Below are positions 908 to 40,942 of a stretch of DNA of 42,310 nt, in pieces (position 1 is the stretch's first letter; every line of letters starts with the position of its first letter). The translations under genes were made by a program, and so were the position numbers. Location: the IMG/VR virus record IMGVR_UViG_643692022_000008. The stretch is one strand, 5' to 3'. The stretch is from a virus. Taxonomy: Duplodnaviria > Heunggongvirae > Uroviricota > Caudoviricetes. The notes under the pieces are model-generated. The model was given only the letters and a program-made list of their open reading frames with translations, had not been told where the DNA came from and did no database searches.

Positions 908-1492
908 TTATTCCATGACAGGGATTACCGGCCACTCAACATCAGGTGCAGTTGATGTATCAACACGGTTCAGCAACACCCGATACTTTTTCCAGGCTTC
1001 CAGCAATGAGGTTTCTACCTCCGTTGCGATCTCAAGATCTACCGCATCCTGAAGTGGCGCAATATTCTCACTGGCTACCCGCATTAGGCTGTTTTTTGTT
1101 TCTTCCGCCTCCCGTATCCGAAACAGTTTTTCTGCTTCTGCATCTTTCACCCAAATTATGCCGTTCCACTTCTGATATTCCCCATCCGGCGACAACCAGG
1201 TGACATTTTCCGGTAACGGGCCGAGTTCAGAAATAAATAACGCGTCCCCTGATGCCACGTCATAGACCGTTTTTTCCCTGTGGTCTTCAACGAGATGCCA
1301 TGATGTATCCTCACTGTTAAAAACAGCCACGAAGCCAGCCGGAATATCTGGCGGTGCAATATCGGTACTATTTGCAGGCAGACCTGTATGAGGGGGAATG
1401 TATGCATCACCTTCACCAATAAATTCATTGGTTCCGGCCAGCAGATTATAAATTTTTATAGTCCGTGGTTGTTCACTCATTCTGAATGCCAT
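908..1492 (-). CDS. Tail fiber assembly protein (Tfa/gpG-like)
   Basis: 194-aa ORF immediately downstream of the tail fiber gene; start overlaps the fiber stop; sequence resembles enterobacterial phage Tfa chaperones. Confidence 0.8.
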
Positions 1493-21057: not shown

Positions 21058-21087
21058 GTTGCCCATCAATATGGGCAACTTTATCTG
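21058..21087 (+). terminator. Rho-independent terminator after bor
   Basis: Hairpin gttgccca/tcaata/tgggcaac (21058-21079) followed by ttta. Confidence 0.55.
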
Positions 21088-21542
21088 CACTGTTCCTTAA
21101 TATACTGCTGAGTCCCTTCCAGTTGTTTCTGCATTATTATCAGTCTATCTCTGAGGGTGAAATAATTCCGTTCAGCGGTGTCTGCCAGTCGGGGGGAGGC
21201 TGCATTATCCACGCCGGAGGCGGTGGTGGATTCACGCACGGACGGACAGACTGCTTTGATGCGCAACCGACGACGACCAGCGGCAACATCATCACGCAGA
21301 GCATCATTTTCAGATTTCGCATCATCTAACTCCTTCGTGTATTTTGCATCGAGCGCAGCAACATCACGCTGGCGAAGCTGCATATCAGTAATTGTCGAGT
21401 TCGCCAGCTTCAGTTCACTGGCCTTGTTATCGCGCTGCTCTTTGTAGGCGATTGCGTTATCACGGTAATGATTAACAGCCCATGACAGGCAGACGATGAT
21501 GCAGATAACCAGAGCGGAGATAATCGCGGTTACTCTGTTCAT
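21081..21542 (-). CDS. Rz: i-spanin Rz
   Basis: [34 protein letters not shown]... closely matches lambda Rz; start overlaps the endolysin stop. Confidence 0.9.
21140..21325 (-). CDS. Rz1: o-spanin Rz1 (embedded in Rz, +1 frame)
   Basis: [19 protein letters not shown]...[27 protein letters not shown] matches lambda Rz1 lipobox and proline-rich region. Confidence 0.85.
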
Positions 21543-22036
21543 TGCTGACCCCACAAACAGATTTCACGCTCAATCTCACGACGAGTCATGAGACCTTTCC
21601 ATTGCTTACCGCCAGCGTATGTCCAGCGCCGTAGCTGATCACATGCGCCTTTGATATCACCCTGGTTTATTTTGCGAAGAAGCGTCGATGTTCTGAAATT
21701 GCCAGCACCCACGTTGTAGACGAACGAGTAAAGAGCGCCGCGCGTTGTTTCCGGTATATCGACTTTGATGTACGGGTTAATTTGTCTGGCGACAGTGGCA
21801 AGGTCTTTATTCAGGAGGGCTTTGCATTCTGCTTCGGTATACGTTTTACCGAGCATAATGTCTTTTCCGGTGTGTCCGTAACATACAGTCCATACACCAA
21901 CTATGTCTTTGTAAGGATTATGTCTCACACCTTCCAGACCATCGTTACCACTTGGGCCAGTGATTAACACAGATGCTATAGCAATAGCCCCGCCACCAAT
22001 AGCAGCAGCAACAGCTTTTCGTAATGATGGAGGCAT
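21539..22036 (-). CDS. R: SAR endolysin (phage 21 R-type lysozyme)
   Basis: N-terminal SAR segment ([20 protein letters not shown]) plus lysozyme domain; near-identical to R21 as I remember it. Confidence 0.9.
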
Positions 22037-22251
22037 TATTCACCTCTCGCAGCCTTGCGCTTATCTTCTTTAATCTTGAAATAAAGGTTTGTCAGGTACG
22101 TCAGCAGGCCAAATACCAAGCTACCCAGCACACCTATTGCTGCCCACTGTGAGGGCGTGACTTTATCGAGCAGCTGTAAAAACCAGTAGCCAGCACTGCC
22201 TGCGGAGGTGCCGTAGGCAATGCCCGTTGTTAACTTATCCATGGATTTCAT
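22036..22251 (-). CDS. S: Pinholin (phage 21 S-type)
   Basis: 71-aa protein [26 protein letters not shown]... with two TM segments, overlapping the endolysin start. Confidence 0.9.
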
Positions 22252-22345: not shown

Positions 22346-22378
22346 CAAAAAGAAAAACGCCAGCGATTATTCTGGCGT
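22346..22378 (-). terminator. Rho-independent terminator downstream of the AraC-family gene
   Basis: Hairpin acgccag/cgattatt/ctggcgt (22357-22378) followed on the minus strand by a U-run (plus-strand aaaaagaaaaa 22346-22356). Confidence 0.6.
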
Positions 22379-22439
22379 AGCTGAAAGCATCATACAATTA
22401 TCAAATACGAAAATTACAAAATCATTAAAACGCATCACG

Positions 22440-23180
22440 TTACATCATGTCTTTTTCTAAAAAAAATCTTGATGAATATTGATGGGGAGGAACACCAAAA
22501 TATCTTCTGAAAACACTTACAAAATATGACGTGTTTTCATAACCGCATATCTCAGCAACTTTTCCAACAGAATATAAATTGTAGCTTAATAACCTTTCCG
22601 CCATCACCATTCGCTCTTCAAGAATTAACTTACTAAATGATAAGCCTTCGTGCTTTAATTTTCTTTTTAACAGACTTTCACTCAGATACAGTCTTGAAGA
22701 TATATCACAAAGTCTCCATGCTGCAGATATATCCGTGTGAATAATAGCCTTAACTTTACTTCCTAAACTATTAAGACATCCAAATAAAAAACTTTGCACT
22801 ATTTTCTCTGAAGATAAGATAGCAAGACATGCAAGTGATATTTGATTTCTAACAAAATCTACAGTTCTGCCATCACAATTCAAGCATGCAATCAAGTTCT
22901 TTAACAATGAAAAATCTTCACATTCCACCATCAAGTATGCCGGATAAAACCTTCTTACAGAAAAAGGTGAGAGTGTGTTGCTTTTAAAGAAATCATTAAC
23001 TGTTTTCTCTTCAACATCTACGATCATTACATGATCTATATTTGATGAAAAAAAATCTTTTAAATTGTAATCAATGAGAACAGCACTTCCCTTTTTAAAC
23101 AAAATATCTTCTTTACCAATTCGGGCATCAAACGAGTTCAACACCAAAATGATAGAACATATGTATGGCATATTATCCAC
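22440..23180 (-). CDS. AraC/XylS-family transcriptional regulator (AT-rich cargo gene)
   Basis: 246-aa ORF with C-terminal AraC-type HTH (VGKVAEICGYENTSYFVSVFRRYFGVPPHQY); very AT-rich gene and 340-bp AT-rich upstream region. Confidence 0.8.
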   Translation of the reverse strand: MDNMPYICSIILVLNSFDARIGKEDILFKKGSAVLIDYNLKDFFSSNIDHVMIVDVEEKTVNDFFKSNTLSPFSVRRFYPAYLMVECEDFSLLKNLIACLNCDGRTVDFVRNQISLACLAILSSEKIVQSFLFGCLNSLGSKVKAIIHTDISAAWRLCDISSRLYLSESLLKRKLKHEGLSFSKLILEERMVMAERLLSYNLYSVGKVAEICGYENTSYFVSVFRRYFGVPPHQYSSRFFLEKDMM

Positions 23181-23520
23181 CTGATATCATTGAGGTTACA
23201 CCAGGTAAGTATAGGTGGAAAATCAATATTCGCCAGTTCAACAATAAGGAAAATCTCATTGCATCACAAGTATAAAATTATGTATTTAACTCACAAAGAC
23301 AAATTATTAAACCAATCTGTTATATTATATATAGCTGCGTGGAATCATAATATTATATTTTGACTGGCATGTTTACCAACTTTAAGTTGCATCTCAATGG
23401 TTTCTTCAGCGTAAACAGAGTTTTTATACAAACTGACACTCTGGGTATCATAGTGTAGTTTTTACGATTGTAAATATCCTGCATGCAGGAACTCATCCTT
23501 TTGGATGATATCGCATACAA

Positions 23521-24480
23521 TTAATTTACCATCAGTCTTAGAGCCAGTTCGTCCGGATAGGGATCGAAGTAATTCTGTGTAAGCAAGTAATCATTAGGAT
23601 ACTCACCCAGATAATGCTTCAGCAGAGTCAACGGCGCAAGAAGAGGTAATGTGCCAGAACGATAGTTAAGTATAACCTCGCTCAACTCTTTACGCTGGCG
23701 TGTACTTAAGTAGTTACTAAAATACCCCTGTATATGCATCAGCACATTCGTGTGATTTTTACGTGATGCAGGTTTTCTGAGAATCGCCATCAGCTTATCA
23801 CGATACACCTCAAAGTATGATTCAAGGTCCGCCCACTCGTGTATTGCAGCCACAAATGGTCCCATATCTTTATAGCCTGCCTGACTATGCGCCAACAACT
23901 GAAGCTTATAACGACTATGAAAAGCTAATAACTCTCTTCTTGATAATTTCTCCTTGTAAAGGTGATTGAGCTCATGCAAAGCAAAAACTCTTTCAACAAA
24001 ATTCTCACGAAGCACTGGATCATGTAATCGCCCATCCTCTTCAACCGGTAGCCAGGAAAACTTTTCCATCAAAGTGCTCGTAAATAGTCCCACTCCATCT
24101 TTACGACCTCGATTACCATTTTCATCATAGACACGCACGCGCTCCATGCCACAGCTGGGAGATTTAGCACAAACCACAAACCCCGATACATCCTTTAATT
24201 TGTCCATATAAGAACGACTAAACTCTGTCATTCTCTCTGTCACATCCTCATTCTGGTCGTGGCTGAAACACATCCGTATATTTCCTTGCGTCGAGCGCAC
24301 AAGACGTAGAGCAGGACGCGGAACTGGCAGCCCTATAGCCATTTCTGGACATACTGGTCTGAATGTTACCCATTCCACTAATTTGTCCATTAAAAAGTCA
24401 GCTCTTTTGTGACCACCATCAAAACGAACAGCAGAACCGGCCAAACAACCGCTGATTCCAATCACAGGTTTTTTTATCAT
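23521..24480 (-). CDS. DUF523 + DUF1722 (YbgA-like) protein, possible Fe-S desulfidase-type enzyme
   Basis: 319-aa ORF; N-terminal Cys-rich region (GISGCLAGS, PVCPEM, CAKSPSCGME) and YbgA-like C-terminal half. Confidence 0.65.
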   Translation of the reverse strand: MIKKPVIGISGCLAGSAVRFDGGHKRADFLMDKLVEWVTFRPVCPEMAIGLPVPRPALRLVRSTQGNIRMCFSHDQNEDVTERMTEFSRSYMDKLKDVSGFVVCAKSPSCGMERVRVYDENGNRGRKDGVGLFTSTLMEKFSWLPVEEDGRLHDPVLRENFVERVFALHELNHLYKEKLSRRELLAFHSRYKLQLLAHSQAGYKDMGPFVAAIHEWADLESYFEVYRDKLMAILRKPASRKNHTNVLMHIQGYFSNYLSTRQRKELSEVILNYRSGTLPLLAPLTLLKHYLGEYPNDYLLTQNYFDPYPDELALRLMVN

Positions 24481-24672
24481 ATTCTCCCCCTTGACTAATT
24501 CATTAACATATAAACTGTGTAGTGCACGGAATAAATTGCCTTTCTGGCGTCATCACTGACAATTTTTCTGTTATGGACTATTCCTAATATAGTATGAAAG
24601 TTCTTTAAGTGATCGGTCGTAATCATCTATCTTTCATACTTACTCTCAACTATCAAAAGTACAGGATTTATT

Positions 24673-25197
24673 ATGAAGTTATGGCCTGTGTTGACTGGCA
24701 TTGCACTCTCTTTCACTCTTATAGCATGTAAGGCCCCGACACCACCTAAAGGTGTGCAGCCGATTACAAATTTTGACGCCAACCGCTACCTCGGAAAATG
24801 GTATGAAATAGCTCGCCTCGAGAACCGGTTCGAACGTGGTCTGGAACAGGTCAGCGCTACTTATGGAAAACGGAACGACGGAGGGATTCGTGTACTTAAC
24901 CGTGGATACGATCCAACGAAAAATAAATGGAGCGAGAGCGAAGGTAAAGCATACTTTACTGGAGATACTAAAACTGCAGCGTTGAAGGTTTCGTTTTTTG
25001 GCCCCTTCTATGGTGGCTATAATGTAATCAAACTGGATGATGAGTATAAGTATGCTCTTGTCAGTGGTCCGAACAGAGAATACCTATGGATTCTGGCAAG
25101 GACCCCAACTATTCCAGATAAAGTAAAAGCAGACTATGTGCGAACCGCTCAAAAGTTGGGATTCAATGTCAATGAATTATTATGGGTTAAACAATAA
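24673..25197 (+). CDS. blc: Outer-membrane lipoprotein Blc (bacterial lipocalin)
   Basis: Lipobox LIAC; NFDANRYLGKWYEIARLENRFERGLEQVSATY and KVSFFGPFYGGYNVIKLD match E. coli Blc motifs. Confidence 0.85.
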   Translation: MKLWPVLTGIALSFTLIACKAPTPPKGVQPITNFDANRYLGKWYEIARLENRFERGLEQVSATYGKRNDGGIRVLNRGYDPTKNKWSESEGKAYFTGDTKTAALKVSFFGPFYGGYNVIKLDDEYKYALVSGPNREYLWILARTPTIPDKVKADYVRTAQKLGFNVNELLWVKQ

Positions 25198-25224
25198 AAT
25201 CCCTACTCGAAATAATACTTATTA

Positions 25225-25251
25225 GAAAAAACCAGCCTTTGGAGAGGCTGG
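25225..25251 (-). terminator. Rho-independent terminator on the minus strand downstream of Q (tR'-like)
   Basis: Hairpin ccagcct/ttggag/aggctgg (25232-25251) followed on the minus strand by UUUUUU (plus aaaaaa 25225-25230), ~100 nt downstream of the Q stop. Confidence 0.6.
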
Positions 25252-25351
25252 CTAAATCAGGAAACAAGCTGTTATATGATAATAACTACGTTGCGATTCC
25301 AACATTTAAAATGTTAGACTAATGACAATCAGACAGCAACTTTTCCTTTAA

Positions 25352-25744
25352 TTATTTCGAACAATCAGCATCCATCTCCAATCGGAGATCCAACACCATC
25401 AGCATACCCTCCACTACGCCCTCAGCTTTCTGGAGCATCCTGCCAACCCAACAATCAGATCGCCCATGCTTACGTGCAAGCGCCATAAAAGTCATGCCGC
25501 CGACATAATAGTCCACCAATAAATCATGCAAATCGCTGTTGTTCTTTTTCAGACGGGCCATGCACCCGCAAATGATCATCGCGTCATCGTCACAACATTG
25601 TGGGCGAGATTTTACTTTTGAAGGAATTAATCCCTTAAAACCGGCGGCAATGGACGACCAGGTCACATCTTCATGATTATTAGCCGCCCACGCTCCCCAA
25701 CGCTCAAGAACCATCTGAATATCACGCATCAACTTACTCCACAA
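25352..25744 (-). CDS. Q: Late antiterminator Q (QuuD-like)
   Basis: [22 protein letters not shown]... Cys-rich Q-family protein; lies between rusA and the lysis region as in DLP12. True start may be the internal ATG (MRDIQ). Confidence 0.8.
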
Positions 25745-25951: not shown

Positions 25952-26314
25952 TCATTCATTCCCCATTTCGGTGATGGTCAGTTCCAGCCTCCCACCTTTG
26001 GTAACTGGCATCTTCACAACGCGGTAATCAACGACCTGAGCATCATCCAGCCAGAAACCTGCTTTGGTGAGTGCGTCAAAAGCGGCTTTTTGTAGATTAT
26101 CCAGGTCACGGCGACGGCGATCCGGCATGTGGCACTCAATGCGGATTTTCACAGGCATAGCCAGACCGATATCCAGCATTGCGTTTTTAATGATTCGGGC
26201 GACGTTATCGCGGTATGCCTGCCCTTCTGCGCTGATGTGCGTGCGCCCTCGATTATGGCGGTAGTAGCGGTTATTGCTCGGCGGCCAGGGTAGTGTGATG
26301 TGGTAAGTATTCAC
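25952..26314 (-). CDS. rusA: Holliday junction resolvase RusA
   Basis: 120-aa protein [18 protein letters not shown]...; RusA-family signature, DLP12-like context. Confidence 0.9.
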
Positions 26315-30840: not shown

Positions 30841-31856
30841 AAATCCACCCCGTAAATCCAGTCAGTGTTCGTCAGGTCGAGTTTTGGTTTGCCGGCTGTC
30901 ACGCCAGCCTGTTGCTTGTTTCGGTTGATTTCGAGCTGGGTCCACTTGTCGCGGAGTTTGGCCGGACTCAGCACGTTACCGGACCAGAAGTTGTCCTGGC
31001 ATGCCCAGCGGAACAGTACACACATATCGCGGTGGTTACGCCCGTCACGCTCACGCATCAGGCGGATATCGTTAGCCCACCCTGCAAAATTCGGTTTTCT
31101 GGCTGATGGCGCGATGGTCTTCACCATGTCAAACATCCACTCTGCGGCGGTCAGGTCTTCTGCTGTCCCCCACTTGCTGCCGCTCTGAATCGCAGCATCC
31201 GGTTTCACCACAGGAAGGTCGTTTTCTGGCTGGTCAGAGTATTCGCCAGAATTCTCGGACGAATAAGGTTTTATATTGTCTTTTGTTAGTTTGTCTTTTG
31301 TGTTTACCTGATTCGGGTAAGTGCCTTTACCTGATTTGGGTAAACTTTTCTTACCTGATTCAGGTAAATTTACCTCTTTCAGGTAAACTTTATTTTTCTT
31401 ACCTGATTCGGGTAATGTTGACCATTCACTGACCACATTATTAATGCCTATATTCCGCCCGCTCTGAATAAAAATCCCACGCTTTACCAGAACACTTTTT
31501 GCAGCAGAACACTTGTGCGGCAATATCCCGGTCAACTCGGAAAGTTGCTCGTTGCTCACCCAATCCAGTTTTTTATTAAAGCCATATGTTTTGCGCATGA
31601 CAGCCAGGAAGACCAGAAGCTGGTGCTGTGTTAATCCGGCCAGCATTACAGCTTCCAGCAACTCATTTGCAATGCGCGTATAACCATCATCGAGATCTGC
31701 CACGCGCGGCTCCTTTTGTGCCGCATCCGGCACAGGAAAATTGAATATCTCAGCAGTGTTTGCCATAATTCCTCCCGCAATGAGTGTGTTACGATTTGCA
31801 CCTGAAAGTCGGTTCTGTTCCCGCAGACCGACTTTCGCCATTTTTAAACCTGTCAT
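30837..31856 (-). CDS. O: Replication initiator O (lambda O-like C-terminus, distinct N-terminal DNA-binding domain)
   Basis: 339-aa ORF overlapping P; contains the iteron array and AT-rich tract internally; C-terminal region resembles lambda O. Confidence 0.9.
   Translation of the reverse strand: MTGLKMAKVGLREQNRLSGANRNTLIAGGIMANTAEIFNFPVPDAAQKEPRVADLDDGYTRIANELLEAVMLAGLTQHQLLVFLAVMRKTYGFNKKLDWVSNEQLSELTGILPHKCSAAKSVLVKRGIFIQSGRNIGINNVVSEWSTLPESGKKNKVYLKEVNLPESGKKSLPKSGKGTYPNQVNTKDKLTKDNIKPYSSENSGEYSDQPENDLPVVKPDAAIQSGSKWGTAEDLTAAEWMFDMVKTIAPSARKPNFAGWANDIRLMRERDGRNHRDMCVLFRWACQDNFWSGNVLSPAKLRDKWTQLEINRNKQQAGVTAGKPKLDLTNTDWIYGVDL
31304..31415. repeat. Replication origin iterons inside the O gene
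   Basis: Five ~17-bp copies of TTACCTGATTCGGGTAA-like repeats at 31304-31320, 31327-31343, 31351-31367, 31369-31386 and 31399-31415, followed in the direction of O transcription by an AT-rich tract (31261-31300). Confidence 0.85.
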
Positions 31857-32398
31857 ATTGCCCCCAACATGGTGGTAACCATCGCCATCAATGGACCAGC
31901 CAGATCCGGGTCCACACGAAACATCGACACAATACCTTCACTCATCTCCTTCAGTTTCTGGTGGCGTGGTGCGTTGAGAATGACAGCCTGTTTTGCCTCA
32001 CTGAGTTCCTTTTCCATTTCAGCCAACCGAGTCATGAAGCTATCCTGCTCAACCAGGTAACCGCGATATTCCAGCGGTAGTACCGCCAGAATTGCCGGGG
32101 TCAGTTCACGCACGTTATTTCGGTATTTTTCAGAATCGAATTTGTTATCGAGGAAGCGGAACAGCTTCTGGCGTGCACGGCTGACATCATCAGGGAAATC
32201 GATGGTGCCGCCGCCCTGCTCCCGATACTCATTCACAATGAGTGCGGCAACAACATCCTGATTATCTGCAGCCGACCAGGCGCGGACGGCATCACGGATT
32301 TTTTCGTGGCCTGGCACCTGTTTTGTTTGAGAACGATTTATCACCGCAGTCGGGCTAAATCCGCTAGTCTGTTGGTATGTAAGTGGTTGCATAGTCAT
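31853..32398 (-). CDS. YdaT-like protein (cII-position regulator/toxin-like)
   Basis: 181-aa ORF between the cro-like gene and O; EYREQGGG...ELTPAILAVLP resembles Rac YdaT as remembered. Confidence 0.5.
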   Translation of the reverse strand: MTMQPLTYQQTSGFSPTAVINRSQTKQVPGHEKIRDAVRAWSAADNQDVVAALIVNEYREQGGGTIDFPDDVSRARQKLFRFLDNKFDSEKYRNNVRELTPAILAVLPLEYRGYLVEQDSFMTRLAEMEKELSEAKQAVILNAPRHQKLKEMSEGIVSMFRVDPDLAGPLMAMVTTMLGAI

Positions 32399-32656: not shown

Positions 32657-32760
32657 TTCCTATTGGTATTGCAATGAATGAATAATAGCAATGAGTATTA
32701 ACCCAAGCAATAGCAAAACGTGTTTTGACCATCAATACGCAAGCGTATAAATTAAAACTT
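32657..32760. promoter_or_regulatory. OR-like operator region with divergent pR and pRM candidates
   Basis: Repeated ATTGCAAT/ATAGCAAT/CAATAGCAA motifs; minus-strand promoter -35 at 32705-32710 and -10 TATTAT at 32682-32687; plus-strand promoter TTGACC at 32725-32730 with -10 ~32747-32752, giving an apparently leaderless cI start at 32761. Confidence 0.6.
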
Positions 32761-33453
32761 ATGAAAAAAGAAACTCTTGCTGATCGCTTAAATCTAGCGA
32801 TGGAACAATCTGGAATGTCTCAAGGCGCTCTTGCAAAGGCGTCTGGCGTAGCTCAACCCACAATCTGGAGACTGACAAGCGGCAACGCGCGCGGCTCAAC
32901 AAAAATTGTTGAAATAGCTAATGCATTGGGTGTTCGAACAGAATGGCTCTCTTCAGGCATAGGCCCGATGAGAAATGACGGTCAACAATCAGGGAAGCCT
33001 GCTGTCAGCCATTCCAAATACTTCAAAATTGACGTTCTTGATATAGAAGTCAGTGCCGGGCCGGGTGTAATCAACCGTGAGTTTGTAGAAGTTCTACGCT
33101 CGGTTGAATACTCGTTTGACGATGCTCGTCACATGTTCGATGGCAGGAAGGCGGAAAATATCCGCATCATTAACGTGCGTGGTGACAGCATGTCAGGAAC
33201 GATCGAACCAGGTGATCTGCTGTTCGTTGATATCACGGTTAAATCTTTCGACGGTGATGGTATCTATGCGTTTCTGTATGACGACACCGCCCATGTAAAA
33301 CGCCTGCAAATGATGAAGGATAAGCTGCTGGTTATCTCTGATAACAAGAGCTACTCACCGTGGGACCCGATCGAGAAAGACGAGATGAACCGCGTGTTCA
33401 TCTTCGGGAAAGTCATCGGGAGCATGCCGCAGACATATAGAAAGCATGGGTAG
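32761..33453 (+). CDS. cI: CI-type repressor (HTH-XRE + S24 LexA-like peptidase domain)
   Basis: N-terminal HTH (QGALAKASGVAQPTIWRL) and C-terminal S24 domain (GDSMSGTIEPGDLLFVD...KRL); start at ATG 32761. Confidence 0.85.
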   Translation: MKKETLADRLNLAMEQSGMSQGALAKASGVAQPTIWRLTSGNARGSTKIVEIANALGVRTEWLSSGIGPMRNDGQQSGKPAVSHSKYFKIDVLDIEVSAGPGVINREFVEVLRSVEYSFDDARHMFDGRKAENIRIINVRGDSMSGTIEPGDLLFVDITVKSFDGDGIYAFLYDDTAHVKRLQMMKDKLLVISDNKSYSPWDPIEKDEMNRVFIFGKVIGSMPQTYRKHG

Positions 33454-33582: not shown

Positions 33583-34722
33583 ATGGCAGCGGTTGAATTT
33601 CAATTGTCTAGGAAGATGATTGATTGGATAGCAAATTCTCAAGGAGTTTCTATCGAAACTCTTGCTGACCAAGTCATGCCCAAAAAGATTAATAAATTTC
33701 TTAACGGAGTGGTAAGTAAATCCGCAGCAGAAAAACTGGCAAAAATTGGAGGAATCCCTTTCGGTTTTTTATTTCTTGAAACGCCACCAACTCCAGCCAA
33801 ACCCAAGATCCCTGACTTAAGGCAAGCTATAAATAGCCGTGAGTTAGGAAAAGATTTTTTTGATGTTTACTATGATATAGAATATAAACTTGAGTGGTAC
33901 AAAGACTATTTAAGAGAAAATGGTAATGATGATCCACTCGATTTTATTGGTAAATTTAAATTTAATAGAAAATTAAATTATAAGGTTGTTGCTACAGACA
34001 TAGCAAACACAATACATTTTGATATACAAAAAGAGATAAAAAATGTCACTTTTGAGAGCTATTTTTCTAAAGTGGCAAAACTAATAGAAGACACTGGCGT
34101 ATTAGTTTTCAAGAATGGTGTTGTGGGTAATAATAATAAAAGAAAACTTGACACGCGAGAGTTTCGTGGTTTCTGTATATCTGATAGCGTTGCTCCGATC
34201 ATTTTTGTAAATAGCTCGGACGCGTTATCTGCGCAGGTATTTACATTATTTCATGAGGTGGCTCATCTTTGGCTTGGAGTCGATGGAGTCTCTGGGTGGG
34301 ACACAGAAAAAAACATAGAATCTTTTTGTAATAAAGTTGCTGCTGAAATCTTAATGCCTGATAATCTCTTCAAATCTTTCTGGCTTAATGCATCCAGCGA
34401 TAATAATTATTATCGAGTAAAAGAGGTTTCTAAGTTATTTAAGGTTAGTGATTTCGCTTGTGCAATCAAAGCGTTACAATTAGATTTGATAGAAAGAAAC
34501 ACTTTGGAGATAATTAAAGATCAAGCTTACAATAAGCCCAAAAAAGAATCCAATGGTGGTTCTTTCTTTAACACATTACCTGTTCGTAACAGTCCAAAAC
34601 TTACGAATATAATAATTTCCAAAGCAATGTCTCAACAATTACCATTAAGGGAAGCAGGCGTACTGCTAAATGTAAAAGCAGATACAGTTGTTGAATTTTA
34701 TAAAAAACGAGAATCTCTATGA
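33583..34722 (+). CDS. HTH + ImmA/IrrE-family (DUF955/COG2856-like) HEXXH metallopeptidase
   Basis: 379-aa AT-rich ORF with AGGTGA RBS; N-terminal XRE-like HTH; HEVAH motif at 34251-34265; stop overlaps the next gene's start (ATGA at 34719-34722). Confidence 0.7.
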   Translation: MAAVEFQLSRKMIDWIANSQGVSIETLADQVMPKKINKFLNGVVSKSAAEKLAKIGGIPFGFLFLETPPTPAKPKIPDLRQAINSRELGKDFFDVYYDIEYKLEWYKDYLRENGNDDPLDFIGKFKFNRKLNYKVVATDIANTIHFDIQKEIKNVTFESYFSKVAKLIEDTGVLVFKNGVVGNNNKRKLDTREFRGFCISDSVAPIIFVNSSDALSAQVFTLFHEVAHLWLGVDGVSGWDTEKNIESFCNKVAAEILMPDNLFKSFWLNASSDNNYYRVKEVSKLFKVSDFACAIKALQLDLIERNTLEIIKDQAYNKPKKESNGGSFFNTLPVRNSPKLTNIIISKAMSQQLPLREAGVLLNVKADTVVEFYKKRESL

Positions 34723-35231
34723 TTCATAATGGAAAATTCTTAATTGATAGTAATGTCTTCATAGAGGCAAAAAACTTTGCATATAACTTCAATTATTGCA
34801 AAATATTTTGGGATTTTCTTCTCGCTTTACACATTAAAGGTCTGATTTATAGCATTAATGCTGTAAAAAAAGAACTATGTGCAAAAGATGATCCATTGTG
34901 TAAATGGATTAAAGAAGAGTTACCATCATCATTCTTCGAAGATGAGCATAGTTCAATAGAAAATTATGCAAAGTTAATAAATTGGTCAACTAAATTAGAT
35001 GTTACCGAAAAGGCAAAGTTTGATTTTGCAAGCCATGAAAAAGCAGATGCTTTTTTAATAGCCCATGCGATGACACATGGATATACTATTATTACCCATG
35101 AGAAACCATCCGGTGGCAAACCTAAAAAAAGAATAATGATCCCGGATGCTGCTGCTTCTCACGGCGTTAAGACATTAACACTATATGAATTTCTTCCAAG
35201 ATACGCTAGTCATAATTTTTCTTTGAAATAA
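34719..35231 (+). CDS. DUF4411 PIN-like putative nuclease
   Basis: 170-aa AT-rich ORF translationally coupled to the upstream peptidase; N-terminal FLIDSNVFIEA strand with conserved Asp typical of PIN-like folds. Confidence 0.65.
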   Translation: MIHNGKFLIDSNVFIEAKNFAYNFNYCKIFWDFLLALHIKGLIYSINAVKKELCAKDDPLCKWIKEELPSSFFEDEHSSIENYAKLINWSTKLDVTEKAKFDFASHEKADAFLIAHAMTHGYTIITHEKPSGGKPKKRIMIPDAAASHGVKTLTLYEFLPRYASHNFSLK

Positions 35232-39467: not shown

Positions 39468-39815
39468 GTGGAAGAAGAAATCTTCACTCGTGAAGAGGCT
39501 GCGTCGTATCTGAAGGTAGACAAAGGCACTATCACGCAGTGGATACGAAGTGGACGACTTCAAGCCGCAAAGATAAATCCAGATAAACCTAAAAGCCCAT
39601 ATCGCATTTGCAAGTCAGACTGCATTGCGGCGCTTAAGTCTGTGAGACACAATAGCGCGGTGAATGCGGTTGATGTGCAGGAGGTTAAAGCATGTCAATC
39701 AAACTGCGCGGTGGCACATGGCACTGCGATTTCGTCGCGCCAGATGGATCAAGAGTTAGACGCTCTCTTGAAACATCGGACAAAAGGCAAGCGCAAGAAC
39801 TTCACGATCGTCTGA
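39468..39815 (+). CDS. xis: Excisionase-like HTH protein (Xis)
   Basis: Probable GTG start at 39468 with GGAG RBS; HTH (TREEAASYLKVDKGTITQWIRSGRL); overlaps the integrase start, as xis and int overlap in lambda. The exact stop is uncertain. Confidence 0.6.
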   Translation: MEEEIFTREEAASYLKVDKGTITQWIRSGRLQAAKINPDKPKSPYRICKSDCIAALKSVRHNSAVNAVDVQEVKACQSNCAVAHGTAISSRQMDQELDALLKHRTKGKRKNFTIV

Positions 39816-40852
39816 AAGCAGAAGCGTGGAGAGTAAAAAATCTCGGGGAATCACCGAAAAAGCTATTCAAGGAAGCCTGCATACGGTGGCTGCGTGAGAA
39901 ATCGGATAAGAAGTCCATTGATGATGACAAGAGCATTATATCGTTCTGGATGTTGCACTTCAGAGAAACCATTCTCTCTGACATAACAACAGAAAAAATA
40001 ATGGAGGCGGTAGACGGGATGGAAAACCGCCGCCATCGCCTGAACTGGGAGATGAGCCGGGACAGGTGTTTGCGGCTTGGCAAGCCAGTGCCGGAGTATA
40101 AACCAAAGCTGGCAAGCAAAGGAACGAAGACGCGGCATCTGGCAATACTTCGCGCTATTCTCAATATGGCTGTTGAATGGGGATGGCTTGACAGGGCGCC
40201 CAAAATATCAACACCACGCGTTAAGAATGGACGAATCAGATGGCTTACAGAGGAGGAATCGAAGCGCCTGTTTGCAGAAATTGCTCCTCATTTCTTCCCT
40301 GTGGTCATGTTTGCAATCACGACAGGCCTTCGTCGTTCCAACGTTACAGACCTTGAGTGGTCACAGGTCGATCTGGATAAGAAAATGGCATGGATGCACC
40401 CTGATGAAACAAAAGCTGGCAATGCGATCGGAGTTCCTCTTAACGAAACCGCATGCCAGATATTAAGAAAACAGCAGGGGCTCCATAAGAGATGGGTATT
40501 TGTCCACACCAAACCTGCCTACCGAAGCGACGGAACAAAAACAGCAGCGGTAAGGAAGATGAGAACCGACAGCAACAAGGCATGGAAGGGAGCGTTAAAG
40601 CGGGCAGGCATTAGCAACTTCCGCTTCCATGACCTGAGGCATACCTGGGCAAGCTGGCTGGTTCAGTCCGGTGTCTCTCTTCTTGCACTTAAAGAGATGG
40701 GAGGATGGGAAACTCTCGAAATGGTTCAAAGATACGCCCACCTTTCAGCTGGGCATCTCACCGAGCACGCGAGCAAAATCGATGCGATTATAAGTCGCAA
40801 TGGCACAAATACGGCACAGGAGGAGAACGTAGTTTACTTAAATGCGAGGTAA
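39692..40852 (+). CDS. int: Tyrosine site-specific integrase
   Basis: 386-aa ORF ending 14 bp before the tRNA 3' end; C-terminal catalytic region [10 protein letters not shown]...RYAHL. Confidence 0.92.
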   Translation: MSIKLRGGTWHCDFVAPDGSRVRRSLETSDKRQAQELHDRLKAEAWRVKNLGESPKKLFKEACIRWLREKSDKKSIDDDKSIISFWMLHFRETILSDITTEKIMEAVDGMENRRHRLNWEMSRDRCLRLGKPVPEYKPKLASKGTKTRHLAILRAILNMAVEWGWLDRAPKISTPRVKNGRIRWLTEEESKRLFAEIAPHFFPVVMFAITTGLRRSNVTDLEWSQVDLDKKMAWMHPDETKAGNAIGVPLNETACQILRKQQGLHKRWVFVHTKPAYRSDGTKTAAVRKMRTDSNKAWKGALKRAGISNFRFHDLRHTWASWLVQSGVSLLALKEMGGWETLEMVQRYAHLSAGHLTEHASKIDAIISRNGTNTAQEENVVYLNAR

Positions 40853-40866
40853 CTTATTGATTTAGA

Positions 40867-40942
40867 TGGTGCCGATAATAGGAGTCGAACCTACGACCTT
40901 CGCATTACGAATGCGCTGCTCTACCAACTGAGCTATATCGGC
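40867..40942 (-). tRNA. thrW: tRNA-Thr (anticodon CGU), thrW-like; 3' 46 nt form the att core
   Basis: Reverse complement reads GCCGATATAGCTCAGTTGGTAGAGCAGCGCATTCGTAATGCGAAGGTCGTAGGTTCGACTCCTATTATCGGCACCA: cloverleaf with CGT anticodon and encoded CCA. Confidence 0.95.

What the first reader, a model, noticed from the sequence alone, without database searches (positions are those of the whole stretch)
22346..25351. Cargo region lies inside the Q-dependent late transcription unit and is bracketed by intrinsic terminators
A strong minus-strand terminator (25225-25251) sits ~100 nt downstream of Q, the position of lambda tR'. A second one (22346-22378) follows the AraC-family gene, just upstream of the holin. 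Late transcripts from a pR'-like promoter must therefore read through both terminators, which Q-modified RNA polymerase can do, and would run antisense through blc before reaching S-R-Rz. This couples cargo expression and blc antisense RNA to prophage induction.
Basis: inference. Interest (0 to 1): 0.4.

Follow-up and report, generated by a model that had tools for sequence, protein, structure and literature searches.

The report
Late promoter sits inside prophage cargo
Both terminators are real, but the promoter that the phage's Q protein acts on appears to lie in the middle of the cargo, so probably only the AraC-type regulator gene and the second terminator belong to the late (lysis) transcript, while the lipocalin and YbgA genes lie outside it.

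Summary
Both terminators exist where stated: T1 (hairpin 25253-25230, U-tract to 25225) and T2 (hairpin 22378-22357, U-tract to 22346), both on the minus strand.

This Q belongs to the 933W/DLP12 clade of the Q21 family. That clade has a conserved late-promoter cassette, TTTACR-WWCGTAAAAA-N6-TATNNT-N4-AGAGTG. In the Sakai Stx2 phage the cassette fits the published 258-nt PR'-to-tR' distance.

The window holds one copy, at 23474-23437 (minus), between the ybgA-like gene and the AraC-family gene. That is 1.75 kb downstream of T1. Across the 166 fetched loci that hold both, the Q residue after a conserved 'SD' (C, T or G) matches the cassette core (CAATCG, CGATCG or CGTACG) without exception, whatever the distance between them.

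I therefore infer that late transcripts start near 23440, run sense through the AraC-family gene, and need Q only to pass T2 before S-R-Rz. On this reading blc and ybgA lie between Q and pR', as nmpC does in DLP12, and pR' transcripts do not run antisense to blc.

T1 resembles the tR'/StxS 3' end of Stx phages but has no cassette upstream. The arrangement is common: 625 of 5426 E. coli genomes. All transcription claims are inferred from sequence.

The parts
25352..25729 (-). Q antiterminator gene (125 aa from the ATG at 25729; an alternative TTG lies at 25744). It belongs to the 933W/DLP12 clade of the Q21 family.
   Evidence: Pfam PF06530, E = 2.5e-51. PDB Q21, E = 1.9e-8. It is 81-88% identical to the Q of Stx phages, DLP12-type phages and 434B.
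25439..25459 (-). Codons for Q residues S91-D92-C93-W-V-G-R. This is the putative start of the DNA-recognition helix, and residue 93 covaries with the promoter cassette core.
   Evidence: SDC pairs with CAATCG (79 loci), SDT with CGATCG (30) and SDG with CGTACG (57), with no exceptions. The helix assignment is an inference by analogy with sigma region 4-type helix-turn-helix motifs.
25225..25253 (-). T1: intrinsic terminator between the convergent Q and blc genes. It resembles the Stx-phage tR' (the StxS 3' end) but has no pR' cassette upstream.
25225..25328 (-). StxS-like segment: about 100 nt similar to the 3' part of the Stx-phage PR'-tR' transcript. It includes the motif TATCATATAACAG at 25281-25269.
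   Evidence: Local alignment score 49, against shuffles with mean 22.2 and maximum 34, z = 7.4. The 131-nt Q-to-T1 stretch folds with z = -4.3.
24673..25197 (+). blc-type outer-membrane lipocalin gene, on the opposite strand. It lies between Q and pR', outside the inferred late unit.
   Evidence: PF08212, E = 7e-44. NCBIfam Blc 316 bits, above the cut-off of 267. phrog_2809.
23521..24480 (-). YbgA-like gene (DUF523/2-thiouracil desulfurase domain plus DUF1722). It is upstream of pR', and no terminator separates it from pR'.
   Evidence: phrog_3275.
23437..23474 (-). Inferred pR' with its Q-binding element. The -35 TTTACA is at 23474-23469, the spacer ATCGTAAAAACTACAC follows, the -10 TATGAT is at 23452-23447, then ACCC and AGAGTG. 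The predicted start is near A23440.
   Evidence: It is the only match in the window, with 0 matches in 100 shuffles. It resembles the Sakai Stx2 phage PR' cassette. The -35, core and -10 are invariant in all related loci although the flanks diverge. The core covaries with the Q residue. It is one of the two best sigma-70 matches in the interval, at 10 of 12.
23172..23436 (-). Leader of about 270 nt between pR' and the AraC-family ATG. It contains a second promoter-like site (TTGGTA-16-TATAAT, 23379-23352) and a second copy of the ATAACAG motif (23329-23317). Both are absent in phage ev087.
   Evidence: The fold is not significant, z = -0.9.
22440..23171 (-). AraC-family, YdeO-like regulator gene with 31-33% G+C. 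It is the only gene between pR' and the first terminator.
   Evidence: PF12833 and PF00165. NCBIfam YdeO E = 1.4e-37 but below the cut-off. phrog_1450. Composition. First terminator at +1069 from the -10.
22346..22378 (-). T2: the only strong terminator between pR' and the holin gene, and so the inferred working tR'.
21081..22251 (-). Lysis cassette: S21-type holin (22036-22251), endolysin (21539-22036) and Rz (21081-21554, with an embedded Rz1-like ORF at 21140-21325). No promoter-like site lies directly upstream.

Best explanation
The Q-to-S interval holds two cargo modules separated by the phage's late promoter.

The inferred pR', with its Q-binding element, is the cassette at 23474-23437 on the minus strand. 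It lies 1.9 kb downstream of the Q gene. Transcription is predicted to start near 23440, run through a leader of about 270 nt and the AraC-family gene in sense, and stop at T2 (22378-22346).

When Q is made after induction, it would load onto RNA polymerase at this cassette and carry it through T2 into S-R-Rz and the structural genes.

blc and the ybgA-like gene lie between Q and pR'. They are outside the Q-dependent unit, as nmpC is in DLP12-type phages, and must use their own promoters.

T1 ends the Q transcript and separates the convergent Q and blc genes. It is a relic, or a re-used copy, of the Stx-phage tR'/StxS 3' domain.

pR' is constitutive in lambda and in Stx phages, and no terminator precedes the AraC-family gene. 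That gene is therefore probably transcribed in the lysogen without Q, with T2 rather than T1 as the gate that keeps lysis genes off.

Shown here: the sequence features, their similarity to characterised elements, their conservation and the covariation. Inferred: promoter activity, the start site, Q loading, and termination and read-through.
For: (1) The cassette occurs once in the window, with no match in 100 shuffles even when 2 mismatches are allowed.

(2) The same cassette overlaps the Q stop codon in VT2-Sakai/Sp5. There, a start 7 nt after its -10 lies exactly 258 nt before the end of the U-tract of the GCCAGCC hairpin. Sy et al. mapped a 258-nt PR'-to-tR' distance by dRNA-seq and Term-seq (PMC7547250).

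(3) The cassette is also present in BP-4795, in a Morganella phage whose Q is only 64% identical, and just upstream of S in DLP12-type phages and 434B.

(4) In 67 of 80 loci fetched by the cassette pattern alone, a Q of this family lies upstream, from overlapping the cassette to 3309 nt away. The other 13 loci are cut less than 2 kb upstream.

(5) Q residue 93 and the cassette core covary perfectly: 166 loci, three classes, no exception, and many distances within each class.

(6) The -35, core and -10 are invariant in all blc-type loci and in ev087, while the flanks are far less conserved.

(7) T2 is the only terminator predicted between the cassette and S, and no promoter-like site lies between T2 and S.

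(8) Records deposited as complete phage genomes carry this layout (Lambda_ev087, 1H12, IdasGreatGrand). The laboratory phage 434B carries the DLP12 layout, with the cassette far from Q.

(9) G+C content differs between blc/ybgA (40-46%) and the AraC-family gene (31-33%), which fits two separate modules.
Against: There are no transcript data for this element, so promoter activity, start site, Q loading and termination at T2 are all inferred.

The covariation could partly reflect linkage within three clades rather than selection, although the cargo between Q and cassette differs within each class.

The window's cassette lacks the hairpin plus T-run that follows 30-40 nt after the -10 in most other variants. 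Its AGAGTG block also varies among blc-type loci. It could therefore be a degenerate copy.

T2 is only moderately stable (z = -1.7), and about 15 related loci have a 1-nt deletion in its stem.

Weak promoter-like sites exist near Q, for example TGGAGA-18-AATAAT at 25380-25351 (9 of 12).

In DLP12 a separate RpoE-dependent start has been reported. By my primer mapping it lies about 350 nt upstream of the cassette, so promoters other than the cassette can feed these lysis genes.
Confidence: 0.72

Rival explanations
1. pR' lies in the roughly 100 nt between Q and T1. Q-modified polymerase reads through both T1 and T2, crossing blc antisense and ybgA and the AraC-family gene in sense.
For: T1 sits where tR' sits in Stx phages and resembles that terminator. 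A 9-of-12 promoter-like site overlaps the Q stop codon (25380-25351), the same relative place as PR' in Stx phages. The Q-to-T1 stretch is strongly structured, z = -4.3.
Against: The clade's conserved cassette is absent between Q and T1. Its only copy is downstream of ybgA, and its core matches this Q's specificity residue. Similarity to the Stx-phage unit covers only the last 100 nt or so, not the promoter half. Some prophages carry an insertion, not classified here, between Q and T1 (L008), and IS3-family transposases are annotated in this region of some genomes.
Confidence: 0.1
2. Two separate units. A Q-independent promoter at the end of Q, or processing of the Q mRNA 3' end, makes a small StxS-like RNA that ends at T1. 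The late operon starts at the 23474 cassette. T1 then has a role of its own in the lysogen or during induction.
For: The 100 nt before T1 resemble StxS_S, a 74-nt Hfq-binding sRNA cut from the PR'-tR' transcript. A hairpin at about 25319-25299 is kept in ev087 through changes that preserve pairing (C-G to U-G, A-U to G-U, U-G to U-A), by my reading of the sequences. Weak promoter-like sites exist here.
Against: No promoter match stronger than 9 of 12. By eye, the stretch corresponding to the start of StxS_S differs at 2 of about 9 bases. Rfam has no StxS model and gave no significant hit.
Confidence: 0.3
3. The 23474 cassette is only the AraC-family gene's own promoter, a captured copy of pR' that no longer responds to Q. 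The lysis genes are driven by read-through from early (pR) transcription or by an unrecognised, non-sigma-70 promoter near S.
For: The canonical promoter-proximal hairpin is missing and the AGAGTG block varies. In DLP12 an RpoE-dependent start has been reported for the lysis cassette.
Against: The cassette core always matches the Q specificity residue, which is unexpected for a site that no longer binds Q. The -35, core and -10 are invariant amid diverged flanks. No promoter-like site lies between T2 and S, and only the ribosome-binding site is shared with DLP12-type phages there.
Confidence: 0.08

Closest known systems
Late region of Stx phages (933W, Sp5/VT2-Sakai, BP-4795): Q, PR', StxS, tR', tRNAs and stx, then S
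   Same: Q is 81-84% identical over residues 1-120. The promoter cassette has the same 16-nt spacer and the same 4-nt gap to AGAGTG. T1 resembles tR'/StxS. Cargo sits between Q and the lysis genes.
   Different: In Stx phages the cassette overlaps the Q stop codon, two hairpins follow (+30 and +236 from the -10), and all cargo lies downstream of tR', so it depends on Q. Here the promoter half and the terminator half are separated and in reverse order. Two cargo genes lie upstream of pR', and one lies between pR' and the first terminator.
DLP12 and DLP12-type phages (quuD, nmpC, essD-rrrD-rzpD; also PhiR26_1, mEp332 and the 434B recombinant)
   Same: rusA-ylcG-Q and S21-type S-R-Rz-bor flanks are shared. 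Cargo lies between Q and the cassette, which is therefore far from Q (about 1640 nt). The first 50 nt after Q and an ATATAACAG motif are shared.
   Different: In DLP12-type phages the cassette with its adjacent hairpin sits about 170 nt before S, with no gene in between. Here an AraC-family gene and a 270-nt leader are inserted and the adjacent hairpin is missing. The cargo differs (porin against blc and ybgA). The Q specificity class differs (SDG with GTACG against SDC with CAATCG).
Lambda pR', 6S RNA, tR' paradigm
   Same: A constitutive promoter followed by a terminator that only Q-modified polymerase passes, placed before S-R-Rz. This is textbook knowledge and is restated in PMC7547250.
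   Different: Lambda Q belongs to a different protein family (PF03589, from my own knowledge). The lambda leader is a 194-nt non-coding RNA. Here the inferred leader is about 1.1 kb and encodes a regulator.
Prophage-borne AraC-like regulators of E. coli (PatE, PsrA, PsrB in O157; AppY in DLP12)
   Same: A YdeO-like AraC-family protein carried as prophage cargo in AT-rich DNA (review PMC10877973).
   Different: Sequence relationship to PatE, PsrA or PsrB was not tested here. Those genes are described as linked to effector loci, not to the Q-S interval. The targets of this protein are unknown.

Membership tests
Q21-family antiterminator (PF06530), 933W/DLP12 clade | Sequence membership in PF06530 and similarity to solved Q21 | tested here: met
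   PF06530 173 bits, against a cut-off of 26. Q21 chains 6p18 and 6jnx, E = 1.9e-8. 81-88% identity to Stx-phage and DLP12 Q.
Q-dependent late transcription unit | A pR' promoter carrying the cognate Q-binding element | tested here: met
   A single cassette at 23474-23437 resembles the Sakai PR' cassette. Its core covaries with Q residue 93. Binding itself was not tested.
Q-dependent late transcription unit | A sigma-dependent promoter-proximal pause that allows Q to load | not testable with these tools
   Only the conserved AGAGTG block at the predicted start region can be pointed to.
Q-dependent late transcription unit | An intrinsic terminator between pR' and the lysis genes, and no other promoter before S | tested here: met
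   T2 is the only predicted terminator between 23447 and 22252. No promoter-like site lies between T2 and S.
Q-dependent late transcription unit | Q-dependent read-through shown experimentally | not testable with these tools
   This needs in vivo or in vitro transcription.
   T1 resembles the Stx-phage tR'.
   There is no cassette between Q and T1. The only cassette is 1.75 kb downstream of T1.
StxS small RNA | Sequence similarity to the StxS 3' domain and terminator | tested here: met
   z = 7.4 over about 100 nt.
StxS small RNA | Transcribed from PR' and carrying the rpoS-pairing seed | tested here: inconclusive
   There is no PR' cassette upstream. By eye, the stretch corresponding to the start of StxS_S differs at 2 of about 9 bases. 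Rfam has no StxS model.
Moron (autonomous cargo with its own promoter and terminator) | Own promoter and own terminator flanking the cargo gene(s) | tested here: inconclusive
   ybgA has a 9-of-12 promoter-like site (24649-24622) but no terminator. blc has T1 28 nt after its stop codon, but in the weak orientation. The AraC-family gene has a 10-of-12 site at 23379-23352, which is missing in ev087.
YdeO / GadX-type AraC regulators | C-terminal AraC-type double helix-turn-helix domain | tested here: met
   PF12833 E = 1.1e-14 and PF00165 E = 2.1e-11.
YdeO / GadX-type AraC regulators | Reaches the NCBIfam YdeO equivalog score | tested here: not met
   129.6 bits against a cut-off of 348. The protein is YdeO-like over its full length but is not YdeO.

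The most novel reading that the evidence does not exclude
A regulator gene has been placed between a constitutive late promoter and its first terminator. The phage's antitermination leader, a short non-coding RNA in lambda and an sRNA in Stx phages, would then have become an mRNA of about 1.1 kb for a YdeO-like AraC-family regulator. That mRNA would be made in the lysogen without Q, and the same terminator (T2) would hold back lysis.

Alongside this, the 933W/DLP12 Q clade would comprise three matched Q-promoter pairs, set by one residue at the start of the recognition helix (C, T or G) and by the core of a near-palindromic site over the -35. Pairs of that kind would let co-resident prophages avoid switching on each other's late genes.
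Probability: 0.35. Interest if true: 0.6.

Novelty: new variant of a known kind. Interest (0 to 1): 0.45.

Why it matters
Which cargo genes are tied to induction depends on where pR' sits, not on where Q sits. This prophage type occurs in about one in nine complete E. coli genomes (625 of 5426).

If the model is right, blc and ybgA are ordinary lysogen-expressed cargo. The AraC-family regulator would be made from the late promoter without Q. Only T2 would stand between a constitutive promoter and host lysis.

The survey also shows that in this Q clade the promoter is often 0.6-3.3 kb from Q. Annotation rules that place pR' 'right after Q', and predictions of which virulence or fitness genes depend on Q, can therefore be wrong.

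The one-residue-to-site-core covariation gives a directly testable specificity rule for a Q family that also includes Shiga-toxin phages.

Tried and rejected
1. I looked for a pR' in the Q-to-T1 gap by eye and by consensus scan. Only weak candidates turned up: TTGCTG-17-TAACAT, TTGGAA-15-TATCAT and TGGAGA-18-AATAAT. None resembles the clade's cassette.

2. I first took the hairpin directly after the Stx-phage cassette (L083 5480-5501) to be tR'. Sy et al. place the 3' end 258 nt from PR', which fits the second hairpin.

3. I tested whether T2 descends from the canonical promoter-proximal hairpin. Alignment of the S-proximal regions is not significant, z = 0.8. Only 'AGCT.A' and the T-run look alike.

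4. I tried to tie the cassette to the published DLP12 essD promoter. The forward primer said to lie at -121 maps to L002 3770. That places the reported RpoE-dependent start about 350 nt upstream of the cassette, so it is a different promoter.

5. Rfam has no StxS family. The hits to a Betaproteobacteria toxic sRNA, mir-7 and U1 are below threshold and are chance or generic terminator matches.

6. L139 looked like a natural variant lacking the AraC-family gene and any terminator. It appears to be an IS1-associated deletion (identified by eye), so it is uninformative.

7. A possible anti-RBS hairpin (CCACCT 23218-23213 with AGGTGG 23182-23177) before the AraC-family ATG is conserved in sequence. 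The minimum-energy fold does not predict it, and the leader fold is not significant.

8. The papers on PatE (PMC3416394) and PsrB (PMC4288888) are not held. The relationship of this protein to them was not tested.

9. I looked for an N-like antiterminator among the early-region ORFs. None of those scanned matched one.
Full report
CONTEXT

The window is a lambdoid prophage. The integrase gene (39692-40852, by its position beside the tRNA; not scanned) adjoins tRNA-Thr (40867-40942). A CI-like repressor lies at 32725-33453 and a CII-like gene at 31853-32398. The late genes run on the minus strand.

Around the finding, the order on the minus strand is as follows:
- rusA (25952-26314)
- Q (25352-25729, PF06530)
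- T1
- blc lipocalin (24673-25197, on the plus strand)
- a DUF523/DUF1722 YbgA-like gene (23521-24480)
- a YdeO-like AraC-family gene (22440-23171)
- T2
- an S21-type holin (22036-22251), endolysin, Rz, and bor on the plus strand

The same 5.4-kb arrangement is present at 80% coverage or more in 625 of 5426 complete E. coli genomes. It is also present in records deposited as complete phage genomes: IdasGreatGrand, Lambda_ev087 and 1H12.

THE OBSERVATION

Both terminators are real features at the stated coordinates.
- T1: 9-pair stem at 25253-25230, U-tract to 25225, -15.6 kcal/mol, z = -3.5.
- T2: 7-pair stem at 22378-22357, U-tract to 22346, -12.1 kcal/mol, z = -1.7.

The consensus pattern alone is not rare (12 found against 9.0 expected), so the support comes from conservation. 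T1 is kept in all 80 related IMG/VR loci and in ev087, with changes mostly in the loop and U-tract. T2 is kept even in variants whose upstream flank has diverged. About 15 loci carry a 1-nt deletion in its 3' arm.

WHERE pR' IS

I tested this by comparison with relatives.

The Q protein is 81-88% identical to the Q of Stx phages (VT2-Sakai/Sp5, BP-4795), of DLP12-type phages and of the 434B recombinant. It is 64% identical to the Q of a Morganella phage.

In VT2-Sakai a promoter, TTTACG-16-TATCAT, overlaps the Q stop codon. A start 7 nt after its -10 lies exactly 258 nt before the end of the U-tract of the hairpin GCCAGCC...GGCTGGC. That equals the PR'-to-tR' distance that Sy et al. mapped by dRNA-seq and Term-seq (PMC7547250).

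The same cassette, TTTACR-WWCGTAAAAA-N6-TATNNT-N4-AGAGTG, is present in BP-4795 and in the Morganella phage at the end of Q. In DLP12-type phages it lies not next to Q but about 170 nt upstream of S, after the nmpC porin cargo.

In the window the cassette occurs exactly once, at 23474-23437 on the minus strand. No shuffle matched, even with 2 mismatches allowed. It sits 47 nt after the ybgA stop codon and 270 nt before the AraC-family ATG. The 16-nt spacer and the 4-nt gap to AGAGTG are the same as in the Stx phages. It is also one of the two best sigma-70 matches in the whole interval, at 10 of 12. Its -35, core and -10 are invariant in all blc-type loci and in ev087, whose flanks are far less conserved.

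THE CASSETTE IS Q'S PARTNER

I scanned IMG/VR with the cassette pattern alone. In 67 of the 80 loci analysed, a Q of this family lies upstream, at distances from -151 to +3309 nt. The other 13 loci are cut less than 2 kb upstream.

I then aligned the 47 distinct Q fragments. The residue after a conserved 'SD' covaries perfectly with the cassette core. This residue is position 93 of the window's Q and is probably the first residue of the recognition helix; that assignment is an analogy with sigma region 4-type helix-turn-helix motifs and was not tested. The classes are as follows:
- SDC with TTTACAATCG: 79 loci
- SDT with TTTACGATCG: 30 loci
- SDG with TTTACGTACG: 57 loci
- off-diagonal combinations: none

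The apparent exceptions by overall Q similarity (L165, L135) are resolved by this residue. Each class spans many Q-to-cassette distances and different intervening cargo. The N-terminal parts of Q are nearly identical between classes.

The window has SDC together with CAATCG. Some contigs were fetched twice and the three classes are clades, so the counts are not independent events. Even so, keeping matched pairs across varied cargo argues for a functional pairing.

CONSEQUENCES FOR THE REGION

T2 is the only predicted terminator between the cassette and S. No promoter-like site lies between T2 and S, and only the ribosome-binding site there is shared with DLP12-type phages.

In most other cassette variants, a covarying hairpin plus T-run follows 30-40 nt after the -10. 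The window type lacks it, and its first terminator comes 1069 nt after the -10, beyond the AraC-family ORF.

The inferred late unit is therefore pR' (start near 23440), leader, AraC-family gene, T2, then S-R-Rz. On this reading blc and ybgA lie between Q and pR' and are outside the unit. The G+C step from 40-46% over blc/ybgA to 31-33% over the AraC-family gene fits two separate cargo modules.

pR' is constitutive in lambda and, by the StxS evidence, in Stx phages. The AraC-family gene is therefore probably transcribed in the lysogen without Q. Q would be needed only to pass T2. This part is inference.

WHAT T1 IS

The roughly 100 nt ending at T1 (25328-25225) align with the 3' part of the Stx-phage PR'-tR' transcript. 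That part comprises the StxS_S domain and its terminator. The alignment scores z = 7.4.

The promoter half of that unit is missing next to Q. The Q C-terminus diverges from Stx-phage Q after '...RLEMD'. T1 is thus an orphan copy of tR'. It sits 28 nt beyond the convergent blc stop codon, where it can end the Q transcript and insulate the two convergent genes.

A 13-nt motif, TATCATATAACAG (25281-25269), recurs as TATAATATAACAG in the AraC leader (23329-23317). It recurs in part next to Q in DLP12-type phages. The second copy is missing in ev087, so it is not essential. It may mark past recombination between pR'-tR' units. Whether an StxS-like RNA is made here is open.

COMPARISON AND NOVELTY

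Cargo in the Q-S interval and Q-dependent read-through are textbook (lambda, Stx phages, DLP12). I found no description of three points, though my literature search was limited:
- In this widespread prophage type the cognate promoter lies inside the cargo, 1.9 kb from Q.
- A regulator gene occupies the promoter-to-first-terminator leader.
- The clade shows a one-residue-to-site-core specificity pattern.

I rate this a new variant of a known kind.

VERDICT AND LIMITS

The finding as written is a reasonable but partly wrong inference. Everything about transcription is inferred from sequence. The decisive experiments are listed separately.

Noticed in passing
window 25439-25459 (Q residues 91-97) and 23465-23470; loci L088 onward: Across 166 fetched loci, the Q residue after 'SD' (C, T or G) pairs without exception with the cassette core (CAATCG, CGATCG or CGTACG). 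The core is the centre of a palindrome, TTTACG-NN-CGTAAA, which is imperfect in the window (TTTACAATCGTAAA) and overlaps the -35. Solved Q21 binds a direct repeat, so this clade may bind differently.
   Followed up: partly
window 25225-25328 (-): About 100 nt after Q resemble the StxS_S small RNA and its terminator from Stx phages. A hairpin at about 25319-25299 keeps its pairing in ev087 through changes compatible with base pairing. An StxS-like RNA may be made in a phage without stx.
   Followed up: partly
window 25269-25281 and 23317-23329 (-); L002 about 2620-2650: The motif TAT(C/A)ATATAACAG and its flanks (31 of 40 nt alike) form a direct repeat 1.95 kb apart that brackets T1, blc, ybgA and pR'. 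A third, partial copy lies next to Q in DLP12-type phages. This may be a trace of recombination between pR'-tR' units.
   Followed up: partly
window 23177-23218 (-): CCACCT (23218-23213) could pair with the AraC-family ribosome-binding site AGGTGG (23182-23177). Both are conserved in the divergent ev087 leader, but the minimum-energy fold does not predict the hairpin.
   Followed up: partly
L094, L136, L151 (IMG/VR): Other phages of the SDG class carry a different AraC-family gene (39% identical) about 540 nt downstream of their cassette, after two terminators. AraC-type cargo just downstream of pR' therefore recurs in separate lineages.
   Followed up: no
L083 5480-5501; L002 4271-4292; many loci: A hairpin plus T-run 30-40 nt after the -10 is conserved, with covarying stems, in most cassette variants. 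In Sakai, however, the reported transcript runs 258 nt. This hairpin may be a partial terminator or part of the pausing and Q-loading region.
   Followed up: no
L008 (IMG/VR), about 65 nt after the Q stop codon; hits H7-H12: One related prophage (L008) has an unclassified insertion between Q and T1, and several genomes have IS3-family transposases annotated in the Q-S region. L139 has an apparent IS1-associated deletion that removed the AraC-family gene and T2.
   Followed up: partly
window 33583-35231 (+): Two genes lie between the CI-like repressor and the kil region, in the place of lambda rexAB. One is a 379-aa HTH/metalloprotease-type regulator (phrog_2439). The other is a 170-aa protein of unknown function (phrog_11126).
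   Followed up: no
window 951-1149 (-): Rfam family IS009 matches at 210.8 bits, far above its gathering score.
   Followed up: no
L084 (phage 434B, OL657227.1): The laboratory phage 434B carries the DLP12 Q, nmpC::IS5 and S-R-Rz segment. A late region with the cassette about 2.9 kb from Q therefore supports lytic growth.
   Followed up: no
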